Shown here: in pieces, positions 9,468 to 9,623 of the stretch
Layout of the letters: each line of letters begins with the position of its first letter
How positions within the stretch are numbered: the stretch's first letter is position 1
Source of the DNA: Candidatus Delongbacteria bacterium
GTDB taxonomy: Bacteria > UBA4055
Assembly: GCA_028702975.1 (NCBI GenBank)
Contig: JAQVNT010000001.1
Location: 1-35,782 of the forward strand
Direction: 5' to 3'
DNA: 35,782 nucleotides
Made by a program: the position numbers and the translations under genes
The notes under the pieces: model-generated
Told to the model about the DNA's origin: nothing
Databases searched by the model: none
What the model saw: the letters and a program-made list of their open reading frames with translations, nothing else

Positions 9468-9623
9468 TTAATATTGAATTGGAGTAAAACCAGTATTGAG
9501 ATCCTGTCCGAAATCACATTTCCTAGCAGTAGTACCTGGTGTACCTTCTTCAACGCCACCTCTAATCTTGAGTCCCTCTTTCTTTAGGTTCAAGATCAAA
9601 TATTTTTTTTTTGATTGTTTCAT
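9468..9623 (-). CDS. RiPP precursor peptide B, 51 aa, double-glycine leader: MKQSKKKYLILNLKKEGLKIRGG|VEEGTPGTTARKCDFGQDLNTGFTPIQY
   Basis: Hand-translated. AAGGAG lies 8 nt upstream of the ATG, with an in-frame TAA two codons upstream. Leader and first 14 core residues are conserved with precursor A. The + strand ORF 9496..9831 is its antisense shadow. Confidence 0.8.
   Translation of the reverse strand: MKQSKKKYLILNLKKEGLKIRGGVEEGTPGTTARKCDFGQDLNTGFTPIQY

What the first reader, a model, noticed from the sequence alone, without database searches (positions are those of the whole stretch)
9468..9623. Unannotated 51-aa precursor B; the two precursors share an exactly spaced 14-residue core V[DE][DE]GTPGTx4CD while the tails diverge completely
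Seen: MKQSKKKYLILNLKKEGLKIRGG|VEEGTPGTTARKCDFGQDLNTGFTPIQY. Aligning A and B shows near-identical leaders with one 1-residue indel. The first 14 core residues follow V-acid-acid-G-T-P-G-T-x4-C-D with identical spacing. After that the tails are unrelated (TVMSKPKPVWN versus FGQDLNTGFTPIQY). Inference: the conserved 14-mer is the recognition and modification zone for the rSAM, for example one Cys-to-Asp/Glu/Thr thioether macrocycle. The variable tail would carry specificity, possibly for the cognate propeller. One Cys per core differs from the Cys-rich targets usually described for SPASM maturases.
Basis: partly seen in the sequence, partly recalled or inferred. Interest (0 to 1): 0.82.

Follow-up and report, generated by a model that had tools for sequence, protein, structure and literature searches.

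The report
Orphan single-cysteine RiPP precursor pair
Two small paralogous genes in an uncultured Delongbacteria genome very likely encode precursors of enzyme-modified secreted peptides, each paired with its own radical-SAM enzyme and lipoprotein propeller; they are a new, lineage-restricted family, but the proposed 14-residue "modification zone" rests on only these two sequences.

Summary
Window 9468-9623 (-) encodes the stated 51-aa peptide B. Its paralogue A (6478-6627, -) shares the leader (18/23 identical, one indel) and an ungapped V[DE][DE]GTPGTx4CD block. The tails are unrelated (26/37 vs 1/11 identities, p = 4e-4). Thirteen of 26 conserved codons differ only synonymously, so both are protein-coding. 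"Unannotated" is wrong: GenBank lists both as hypothetical proteins.

Context fits a RiPP. Each precursor has its own promoter-proximal conserved element, SD and downstream hairpin. Each is followed by its own RRE + radical-SAM + 7-Cys SPASM enzyme, whose best structural match is CteB and best family match is PapB, below cutoff. A DUF5128-like lipoprotein propeller follows each enzyme. One intact C39-ABC exporter serves both cassettes.

The refutation test could not be run. A profile search of 1.84 billion proteins and DNA-pattern scans of 185,579 genomes and of metagenomes found the motif only in this lineage.

Most likely mechanism (inferred): one Cys thioether within the conserved block. 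The invariant Cys-Asp dipeptide (PapB-type CX0D) is a more specific candidate than a large macrocycle.

Verdict: a new variant of a known kind, of moderate interest.

The parts
9700..9728 (-). Sigma-70-like promoter candidate for cassette B (TTGACA-17 nt-TAAATT)
   Evidence: Matches 10 of 12 consensus positions. Both hexamers are kept in the sister lineage L001, although the surrounding DNA is diverged. This is a consensus match only.
9664..9691 (-). Conserved promoter-proximal element upstream of precursor B: palindrome ATTGCGCAATT plus AAAATCCGGACGCGG
   Evidence: The 15-mer occurs only here and upstream of precursor A (0.06 expected). The palindrome is also shared. This stretch is more conserved between A and B than the coding sequence. 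No Rfam match and no significant fold. Probably an operator.
9632..9635 (-). Shine-Dalgarno GGAG, 8 nt before the ATG of precursor B
   Evidence: Read from the sequence.
9468..9623 (-). Precursor B, 51 aa. Leader 9555-9623 (MKQSKKKYLILNLKKEGLKIRGG). Conserved core block 9513-9554 (VEEGTPGTTARKCD). Variable tail 9471-9512 (FGQDLNTGFTPIQY). Stop 9468-9470.
   Evidence: Present as a called protein in public collections.
9420..9450 (-). Stem-loop between precursor B and rSAM B
   Evidence: MFE -19.8 kcal/mol, z = -4.6, 0 of 200 shuffles fold as well. No T-run follows, so it is an attenuator or stabiliser candidate, not a canonical terminator.
7969..9396 (-). rSAM/SPASM maturase B, 475 aa
   Evidence: Pfam Radical_SAM and Fer4_12. 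NCBIfam best hit is PapB at 185 bits, below the cutoff of 340. Invariant C113/C117/C120 and seven SPASM Cys. AF2 pLDDT 86.6 with an N-terminal beta3-alpha3 domain. Foldseek top hit is CteB, TM 0.73/0.82.
6788..7951 (-). Lipoprotein beta-propeller B, 387 aa (signal peptide and lipobox LISC)
   Evidence: 60% identical to propeller A. Distant homologues carry PF17170 DUF5128. AF2 pTM 0.79. Foldseek: BF0058 (4RAA), NHL domains, DUF4221.
6666..6695 (-). Conserved promoter-proximal element upstream of precursor A (ATTGCGCAGTT plus AAAATCCGGACGCGG)
6478..6627 (-). Precursor A, 49 aa. Leader 6556-6627. Conserved core block 6514-6555 (VDDGTPGTITPACD). Tail 6481-6513 (TVMSKPKPVWN).
6423..6456 (-). Stem-loop between precursor A and rSAM A
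   Evidence: MFE -21.4 kcal/mol, z = -3.3, 0 of 200 shuffles fold as well.
4989..6407 (-). rSAM/SPASM maturase A, 472 aa
   Evidence: 54% identical to rSAM B. PapB 205.6 bits, CcpM 180, SCIFF 160, QhpD 159, all below cutoffs.
3796..4992 (-). Lipoprotein beta-propeller A, 398 aa
   Evidence: Its start overlaps the end of rSAM A by 4 nt.
1581..3779 (-). Peptidase-containing ABC transporter (PCAT), 732 aa
   Evidence: Peptidase_C39 7.6e-35, ABC_membrane, ABC_tran. Catalytic-type motifs QLDAMDCGP and HFVVVY...DPA are present. Intact in the sister lineage.
9795..10479 (-). Two tandem 117-aa AraC-type HTH_18 proteins (9795-10148 and 10126-10479), candidate regulators
   Evidence: Pfam HTH_18. The two are paralogues, 42% identical. 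A role in this system is inferred from position only.

Best explanation
A and B are paralogous precursors of ribosomally made, post-translationally modified peptides (RiPPs) from a tandemly duplicated cassette: precursor, then RRE-rSAM-SPASM maturase, then lipoprotein propeller.

Proposed steps:
1. The conserved leader (KKKY[LV]ILNLKK...GLKI[RK]GG) docks on the maturase's N-terminal RRE-like domain.
2. The CteB/PapB-like enzyme uses its radical-SAM cluster and two auxiliary clusters to install one cross-link in the conserved block V[DE][DE]GTPGTx4CD.
3. That cross-link is most likely a thioether from the single Cys. The leading acceptor candidate is the invariant neighbouring Asp, a PapB-type Cys-X0-Asp giving a small ring. 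Alternatives are an upstream Thr or Asp/Glu, giving a macrocycle.
4. The shared PCAT cleaves after Gly-Gly and exports both peptides.
5. The extracytoplasmic lipoprotein propeller of each cassette then binds its cognate mature peptide, as an immunity protein or a receptor.

Shown: the genes are real and under purifying selection; the domain content; the fold relationships; the co-duplication.
Inferred: every chemical step, the cleavage site, and the propeller's role.
For: Coding and selection:
- Half of the amino-acid-identical codons differ synonymously.
- SD and conserved upstream element.
- A hairpin separates each precursor from its enzyme gene. I recall this layout as common in RiPP operons; that is from memory, not checked here.

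Maturases:
- CX3CX2C and seven SPASM Cys are invariant in a 71-sequence alignment.
- The modelled N-terminal beta3-alpha3 domain is confident.
- The full-length best structural match is the thioether synthase CteB, TM 0.73/0.82. It is also the best PDB sequence match, 2.3e-28.
- The best NCBIfam models include the thioether maturases PapB, SCIFF and QhpD, plus CcpM and the nif11-type maturase, whose chemistry was not checked.

Export: the PCAT has an intact C39 domain, and each peptide has a single GG.

The conserved block ends at CD:
- Segment statistics.
- The only natural non-leader variant, F38P, lies immediately after it.

Precedents:
- PapB cross-links Cys-Xn-Asp with n = 0-6, including CX0D (PMC9413430).
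- NxxcA carries a single Cys thioether to an upstream residue (PMC8326336).
- Enteropeptin has a ring between adjacent residues (PMC12395415).

Propeller: lipobox, propeller fold and 1:1 duplication with the precursor.
Against: - Only two paralogues exist, so conservation of the 14-mer may partly reflect shared descent. The neighbouring proteins are 54-60% identical overall, against 8/14 in the block.
- The maturases fall far below every curated family cutoff.
- They are only about 30% identical to their nearest relatives. SPASM enzymes that far apart often have different chemistry: anSME, TigE, ChlB and SuiB are also structural matches.
- PapB processed CX0D inefficiently.
- The precursors match no bacteriocin-leader model.
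- No membrane-fusion or outer-membrane export partner is seen next to the PCAT, and this organism is presumably diderm.
- There are no expression or mass-spectrometry data.
Confidence: 0.55

Rival explanations
1. The maturases perform a non-thioether radical reaction in the conserved block. Examples are an ether or C-C cross-link from the conserved Thr/Pro/Val, cyclopropanation of the conserved Val1, oxidation of Cys as in anSME, or epimerisation. The Cys would then only ligate the auxiliary cluster or stay free.
For: Structural relatives include anSME, ChlB, TigE (cyclopropylglycine synthase, 8VPO) and SuiB. All curated thioether families are missed by wide margins. In the CteB complex a substrate Cys that is not cross-linked contacts the auxiliary cluster (PMC8326336). 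Val, two Thr and Pro are also invariant.
Against: The closest relatives by sequence and by fold are thioether-forming. The anSME motif C-x-P/A-x-R is absent around the Cys. No aromatic residue is conserved for cyclophane or Trp cross-links.
Confidence: 0.2
2. The 14-mer is conserved for reasons other than modification, such as target binding, protease or exporter recognition, or slower divergence after duplication. The enzyme-specific modification would then lie in the divergent tails, which would explain why each precursor keeps its own maturase.
For: Each cassette keeps a private maturase that is only 54% identical to the other, although the leaders and the 14-mer are so similar. That would be unnecessary if both enzymes did the same thing at the same site. 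The tails hold further candidate residues: D41, T44, T47 and Y51 in B; T, S and W in A.
Against: The tails share no residue pattern or length. The only Cys lies in the conserved block. The tail varies even between strains (F38P).
Confidence: 0.12
3. A and B are the two halves of a two-peptide bacteriocin, each matured by its own radical-SAM enzyme, as in thuricin CD. This can coexist with the best explanation.
For: There are two precursors, two rSAMs and one exporter in one block. The block is inherited and exchanged as a unit: it is 98-100% identical between lineages whose flanks are 73-92% identical. Thuricin CD is a precedent, with two rSAMs and two peptides (PMC12093266, abstract).
Against: Each cassette has its own promoter-like region, hairpin and propeller, which looks like two autonomous units. 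No activity data exist.
Confidence: 0.15
4. The small ORFs are unmodified or non-functional leftovers, and the rSAMs act on another substrate.
For: No homologues exist outside this lineage. No family model matches.
Against: There is purifying selection between the paralogues. The sequences are nearly invariant across strains. SD, conserved upstream element and tight precursor-enzyme adjacency are all duplicated together.
Confidence: 0.03

Closest known systems
Ranthipeptide systems: CteA/CteB (thermocellin, SCIFF) and PapA/PapB (freyrasin)
   Same: An RRE + radical-SAM + 7-Cys SPASM maturase is encoded next to a small leader-core precursor. CteB is the best structural match and the best PDB sequence match. 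PapB is the best NCBIfam model. An invariant Cys lies next to an acidic residue, and PapB accepts Cys-X0-6-Asp (PMC9413430).
   Different: Scores are far below family cutoffs: 185-205 against 340 for PapB, and 131-160 against 425 for SCIFF. There is one Cys instead of six. There is no C-X3-D repeat. The leader is a double-glycine type with a PCAT. A lipoprotein propeller accompanies each cassette. The host is an FCB-type uncultured phylum, not Firmicutes.
CcpM / CLI_3235 bacteriocin systems (TIGR04068, PF27803)
   Same: These are the nearest sequence relatives of the maturases in a 5.8-billion-protein collection, at about 30% identity. They show the same precursor-then-rSAM gene order.
   Different: Their precursors are Cys-rich, for example CFCVVCSCSCYC. 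In the four clusters examined, two precursors match PF27803, whereas A and B do not. Their partners are an unrelated protein of about 345-380 aa, a separate ABC transporter and, in most, an S8 peptidase. There is no propeller.
NxxcA/NxxcB (Streptococcus orisratti)
   Same: A single Cys forms a single thioether installed by a SPASM rSAM, with the acceptor upstream of the Cys (PMC8326336). This shows that one-Cys substrates are not unprecedented.
   Different: No NxxC motif is present here. No sequence relationship to NxxcB was tested or seen. The leader, export and accessory genes differ.
Quinohemoprotein amine dehydrogenase maturation (QhpC/QhpD with the propeller subunit QhpB)
   Same: A QhpD-like rSAM (129-159 bits) makes Cys-Asp/Glu thioethers in a small exported polypeptide. 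From my own knowledge, not tested here, that polypeptide then associates with a beta-propeller subunit outside the cytoplasm.
   Different: The score is well below the QhpD cutoff of 453. There is one Cys, not four. No conserved Trp is available for a CTQ cofactor, since B has none. No dihaem cytochrome gene is present. The propellers are DUF5128/NHL-like lipoproteins.
Thuricin CD (Trn-alpha/Trn-beta with TrnC/TrnD)
   Same: Two related precursors and two rSAM maturases sit in one locus with a shared ABC exporter (PMC12093266).
   Different: Those peptides carry three Cys-to-alpha-carbon bridges each. That locus has no propellers and comes from Firmicutes. Here each cassette looks transcriptionally autonomous.

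Membership tests
Radical-SAM/SPASM RiPP maturase (CteB-like architecture) | CX3CX2C radical-SAM cluster motif | tested here: met
   C113, C117 and C120 are invariant in the 71-sequence alignment. Pfam Radical_SAM 1.2e-15.
Radical-SAM/SPASM RiPP maturase (CteB-like architecture) | Seven-Cys SPASM motif (C-x(n)-G-x4-C ... C-x2-C-x5-C-x3-C ... C) for two auxiliary clusters | tested here: met
   C353, G367, C372, C412, C415, C421, C425 and C447 are invariant. Pfam SPASM gives only 19.7 bits on the isolated C-terminus, below its cutoff of 21.5.
Radical-SAM/SPASM RiPP maturase (CteB-like architecture) | N-terminal RiPP recognition element (winged helix, beta3-alpha3) | tested here: inconclusive
   The AF2 model shows strands 19-24, 27-32 and 37-41 and helices 43-54, 56-61 and 64-79 at pLDDT 78-95. 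The Foldseek alignment to CteB spans 462 columns. No Pfam RRE/PqqD hit on residues 1-100. Peptide binding was not tested.
PapB-family ranthipeptide maturase (NF047865) | Score at or above the curated cutoff (340 bits) | tested here: not met
   185.0 bits for B and 205.6 bits for A.
SCIFF maturase (TIGR03974) / CcpM (TIGR04068) / QhpD (TIGR03906) | Score at or above the curated cutoffs (425 / 500 / 453 bits) | tested here: not met
   131-160, 146-180 and 129-159 bits respectively.
Ranthipeptide / sactipeptide (product class) | Cys sulfur to carbon thioether installed by the rSAM | not testable with these tools
   Needs co-expression with MS/MS or NMR. Only one Cys is available per core.
Double-glycine leader peptide exported by a PCAT | C39 peptidase-ABC transporter in the locus with its catalytic motifs | tested here: met
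   Peptidase_C39 7.6e-35. DCGP and HFVV...DP motifs.
Double-glycine leader peptide exported by a PCAT | Leader matches a curated bacteriocin-type double-glycine signal model (e.g. TIGR01847) or the GG-Bacteroidales precursor model | tested here: not met
   No NCBIfam hit at E <= 1 and no Pfam hit at E <= 10. By eye, there is a single GG with Ile at -4, Leu at -6 and an acidic residue at -8 in both peptides.
CLI_3235 bacteriocin precursor (PF27803) | Precursor matches PF27803 and is Cys-rich | tested here: not met
   No hit. One Cys only.
DUF5128 / 6-bladed beta-propeller lipoproteins (PF17170) | Match to PF17170 | tested here: inconclusive
   No direct Pfam hit for the window proteins. Homologue P0128 (29% identical over 99% of the length, E = 1.9e-27) and P0129 carry PF17170. 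The propeller fold is confirmed by the model, with BF0058 (4RAA) as top hit.

The most novel reading that the evidence does not exclude
The peptides are not diffusible antibiotics. Instead each is a cross-linked small partner made for its cognate lipoprotein propeller. After rSAM cross-linking and PCAT export, each peptide would dock through its variable tail onto its own propeller, forming a two-part extracytoplasmic complex. This would be a QHNDH-gamma/beta-like logic, or a surface ligand-receptor pair. The invariant V[DE][DE]GTPGTx4C-D block would carry a previously undescribed small Cys-Asp ring. The whole 6-kb two-cassette block would spread between lineages as a unit.
Probability: 0.12. 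Interest if true: 0.8.

Novelty: new variant of a known kind. Interest (0 to 1): 0.52.

Why it matters
If the inference holds, this is a new RiPP precursor family from a barely studied, uncultured phylum. It has no detectable relatives among 1.84 billion representative proteins. Its maturases are a deep, orphan branch of the thioether-forming SPASM enzymes, and they act on a one-Cys core. An invariant Cys-Asp dipeptide would be a natural test case for the contracted CX0D cross-link that has so far been seen only with engineered PapB substrates. As far as I could find, a lipoprotein beta-propeller duplicated strictly 1:1 with a precursor and its maturase has not been described for radical-SAM RiPPs. 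It could reveal a new immunity or receptor mode in presumably diderm bacteria. Practically, the system is small, about 2 kb for a precursor and its enzyme, and well suited to heterologous co-expression.

Tried and rejected
Searches for further family members all came back empty:
- Word-indexed profile search of 5.8e9 proteins.
- Exhaustive HMMER search of 1.84e9 representatives.
- Back-translated core pattern [DE][DE]GTPGTx4CD in 185,579 species genomes. It found the organism's own MAG plus two hits judged to be chance. The Gemmataceae hit has a stop codon just before the motif. The Oligoflexus hit lies in a continuous reading frame with no GG leader.
- Pattern GGV[DE][DE]GTPGT in metagenomes. 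It found only same-lineage contigs.

Other checks that led nowhere or were rejected:
- Contexts of the nearest rSAM relatives. All examined (P0003, P0004, P0005, P0013, P0021) sit in Firmicute-style clusters with Cys-containing, mostly Cys-rich precursors; two match CLI_3235. None has a propeller or a related precursor.
- Homology between the protein following the rSAM in those clusters and the propeller: none.
- Contexts of the propeller homologues P0128 and P0129: short contigs with no rSAM.
- The methyltransferase next to P0128 is unrelated to the methyltransferase-like ORF 154-1308.
- A third precursor copy in the window: none found by six-frame regex.
- A frameshift origin for the divergent tails: rejected by reading the other frames of the tail DNA by eye.
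- An Rfam family for the conserved upstream element: none. It has no significant RNA fold either, so an RNA-element reading was dropped in favour of a DNA operator.
- The apparent loss of the C39 domain in the sister lineage was a gene-calling artefact.
- Literature search for propeller + RiPP + radical SAM + precursor peptide + lipoprotein: zero papers. DUF5128 with radical SAM: nothing relevant.

Full report
**1. The observation**

The minus-strand ORF at 9468-9623 translates to MKQSKKKYLILNLKKEGLKIRGGVEEGTPGTTARKCDFGQDLNTGFTPIQY, exactly as reported. The second peptide, A, lies at 6478-6627 (-). It reads MKTAKKKYVILNLKKNDGLKIKGGVDDGTPGTITPACDTVMSKPKPVWN.

In the alignment:
- The leaders are 18/23 identical, with one 1-residue indel.
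- The next 14 residues align without gaps as V-[DE]-[DE]-G-T-P-G-T-x4-C-D. Eight are identical and two are conservative.
- The tails, 14 and 11 aa, share nothing.

The segment contrast is 26/37 against 1/11 identities, p = 4.4e-4. The tails are not frameshifted versions of each other (other frames read by eye). At the DNA level, conserved sequence resumes just after the stop codons (AGCATG, then a hairpin). So the tail is a local hypervariable island.

**2. Are these real genes?**

Over the 37 alignable codons, 13 are identical, 13 differ only synonymously and 11 are non-synonymous. In the 14-mer, five of the eight conserved residues use different codons. That is purifying selection on the peptide sequence.

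Each ORF has a GGAG 7-8 nt upstream of its ATG. B has an in-frame stop one codon before its ATG.

The word 'unannotated' does not hold for public records. Both peptides are called proteins in NCBI, JGI, ENA and Logan. They are listed as hypothetical proteins PHF33_00850 (B) and PHF33_00835 (A) of a Candidatus Delongbacteria MAG.

Natural variants of B are F38P, which is the cluster representative found on several contigs and changes the residue right after Cys-Asp, and the single-record changes Y8N and L18F. A is invariant across contigs.

**3. Surroundings**

On the minus strand the order is:

| Element | Coordinates |
|---|---|
| Two paralogous AraC-type HTH proteins | 10126-10479 and 9795-10148 |
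| Precursor B | 9468-9623 |
| rSAM B | 7969-9396 |
| Propeller B | 6788-7951 |
| Precursor A | 6478-6627 |
| rSAM A | 4989-6407 |
| Propeller A | 3796-4992 |
| C39-ABC transporter | 1581-3779 |

The two rSAMs are 54% identical and the two propellers 60% identical. The whole three-gene cassette was therefore duplicated in tandem.

Upstream of both precursors there is a strongly conserved element. It consists of ATTGCGCA[AG]TT and AAAATCCGGACGCGG, and the 15-mer occurs nowhere else in the window. In B it sits just downstream of a TTGACA-17-TAAATT promoter-like site. It has no Rfam match and no significant fold, so I read it as an operator.

A stable stem-loop follows each precursor gene (z = -4.6 and -3.3). 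Neither has a T-run.

The rest of the window is chromosomal housekeeping: def, yajC, a SurA-like protein, ComEC and a GyrB/ParE-type topoisomerase. A T9SS-sorted protein fits an FCB-type organism, presumably diderm.

**4. The enzymes**

- Both carry Pfam Radical_SAM and Fer4_12.
- In an alignment with 69 homologues, the CX3CX2C cysteines and seven SPASM cysteines are invariant.
- An AF2 model of rSAM B (pLDDT 86.6, pTM 0.88) has a confident N-terminal three-strand, three-helix domain typical of RiPP recognition elements.
- The model matches CteB, the thermocellin thioether synthase, over its full length (TM 0.73/0.82). Next come anSME, ChlB, TigE, SuiB and SkfB.
- CteB is also the best PDB sequence match (2.3e-28).
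- NCBIfam ranks PapB first (185 and 206 bits), then CcpM, the nif11-type maturase, SCIFF and QhpD. Every score is far below the curated cutoff.
- In 5.8 billion proteins the only relatives above about 30% identity are the two enzymes themselves and their strain variants.
- The relatives at about 30% identity all sit in Firmicute-style clusters of the CcpM/CLI_3235 kind, with Cys-containing, mostly Cys-rich precursors and no propeller.

**5. The exporter**

The 732-aa protein is a full PCAT. It has a strong C39 domain and the catalytic-type DCGP and HFVV...DP motifs. It is intact in the sister lineage.

Each peptide has a single Gly-Gly, preceded by Ile at -4, Leu at -6 and an acidic residue at -8. 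No curated leader model matches, so the cleavage site is inferred.

**6. The propellers**

Both begin with a signal peptide and a lipobox (LISC and LYSC). The AF2 model (pTM 0.79) is a beta-propeller. Its best PDB matches are the Bacteroides fragilis exported protein BF0058 (4RAA), NHL domains and DUF4221. Ligand-capturing Bacteroides surface lipoproteins (BtuG, XusB) appear further down the list.

Two distant homologues carry PF17170 (DUF5128) and are not next to an rSAM on their short contigs.

As exported lipoproteins, the propellers cannot assist the cytoplasmic rSAM reaction. They must act on or with the exported peptide. Strict 1:1 duplication with the precursor suggests a cognate binding partner. 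Lipoprotein immunity of the NisI type (from my own knowledge, not checked here) is the conventional reading.

**7. Is the motif conserved elsewhere?**

- A profile of A and B found only A and B in the 5.8e9 collection.
- It also found only A and B in an exhaustive HMMER scan of 1.84e9 representatives.
- The back-translated core pattern found only the organism's own MAG plus two chance hits in 185,579 species genomes.
- GGV[DE][DE]GTPGT found only same-lineage contigs in metagenomes.

The family is therefore lineage-restricted, and the '14-residue core' is a two-sequence statement. What can be said is that the conserved zone has a sharp boundary after Cys-Asp, that it is under purifying selection, and that it contains the only Cys.

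**8. Mechanism**

Best-supported reading (confidence about 0.55):
- The leader docks on the RRE-like domain.
- A CteB/PapB-like radical reaction makes one thioether from Cys13 of the core.
- The PCAT cleaves after GG and exports.
- The propeller binds the product.

Acceptor candidates conserved in both peptides are Asp14 (adjacent, downstream), Thr8, Thr5 and Asp/Glu2-3 (upstream).

PapB-, CteB- and QhpD-type enzymes use acceptors C-terminal to the Cys (PMC12373016; PMC8326336). The only conserved downstream acceptor is the adjacent Asp. PapB does process Cys-X0-Asp, though incompletely (PMC9413430). Rings between adjacent residues occur naturally in enteropeptins (PMC12395415). Upstream acceptors are also known, as in NxxcA with Cys23 linked to Asn20 (PMC8326336).

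I regard the CD dipeptide as the sharper hypothesis.

Rivals:
- Non-thioether chemistry (0.2).
- Modification in the tails, which would explain why each cassette keeps a private maturase (0.12).
- A two-peptide bacteriocin (0.15, not exclusive of the best explanation).
- Non-functional ORFs (0.03).

**9. Comparison with known systems and novelty**

The system works like a ranthipeptide or sactipeptide pathway with PCAT export. It fails every curated membership cutoff that was tested. Its precursors belong to no known family. The per-cassette lipoprotein propeller has no described counterpart that I could find.

I class this as a new variant of a known kind. Interest is moderate (0.52). It is a clean, compact and experimentally tractable orphan system with an unusual accessory protein. 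However, the central claim is an inference from two paralogues and cannot be strengthened by comparative genomics today.

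Noticed in passing
window ~3650-9700, compared with L001 (JGI 3300010350 Ga0116244_10001349): The block holding exactly the two cassettes (preB, rSAM B, propeller B, preA, rSAM A, propeller A) is 98-100% identical to a sister lineage. The flanks are much more diverged: the AraC-like genes are 73-83% identical and the PCAT 80-92%. 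This suggests recent recombination, transfer or a sweep of the block as a unit.
   Followed up: partly
window 9664-9691 and 6666-6695 (-): A conserved non-coding element lies upstream of both precursors: the palindrome ATTGCGCA[AG]TT followed by AAAATCCGGACGCGG. It is more conserved than the coding sequence, it is kept in the sister lineage, and it has no Rfam match and no significant RNA fold. It is probably an operator, possibly for the adjacent AraC-like proteins.
   Followed up: partly
window 9795-10148 and 10126-10479 (-): Two tandem, overlapping 117-aa proteins consist of little more than an AraC-type HTH_18 domain. They are 42% identical paralogues. Two regulators beside two cassettes may be one regulator per cassette.
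   Followed up: no
window 10739-10900 (-): A 53-aa ORF has a Sec-type signal peptide and a Trp/Pro-rich mature part: MRKLFAIVIIALSLLANNAFA|DETVCPDWVWINGTWVYTGTDPNPQPPPPVKG. It is called as a gene in all sister contigs. A 77-aa ORF follows at 10480-10713. Function unknown.
   Followed up: no
window 11031-13190 (-): A 719-aa protein with an N-terminal HTH and C-terminal TPR repeats lies just upstream of the locus. The architecture recalls cytoplasmic peptide-sensing regulators. No link to the cassettes was tested.
   Followed up: no
window 154-1308 (-): A 384-aa ORF downstream of the PCAT has only weak, sub-threshold methyltransferase-domain hits over residues about 106-169. It is unrelated to the methyltransferase next to the propeller homologue in L011. 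No membrane-fusion or outer-membrane partner for the PCAT is visible.
   Followed up: partly
propellers B and A (window 6788-7951 and 3796-4992) and L011 1267-2421: The propellers share with the distant DUF5128 homologue P0128 a conserved N-terminal NKNIPANP motif just after the lipobox. All four aligned sequences, including P0129, share an invariant G-x-GPGE motif. These could be functional sites of this uncharacterised family.
   Followed up: no
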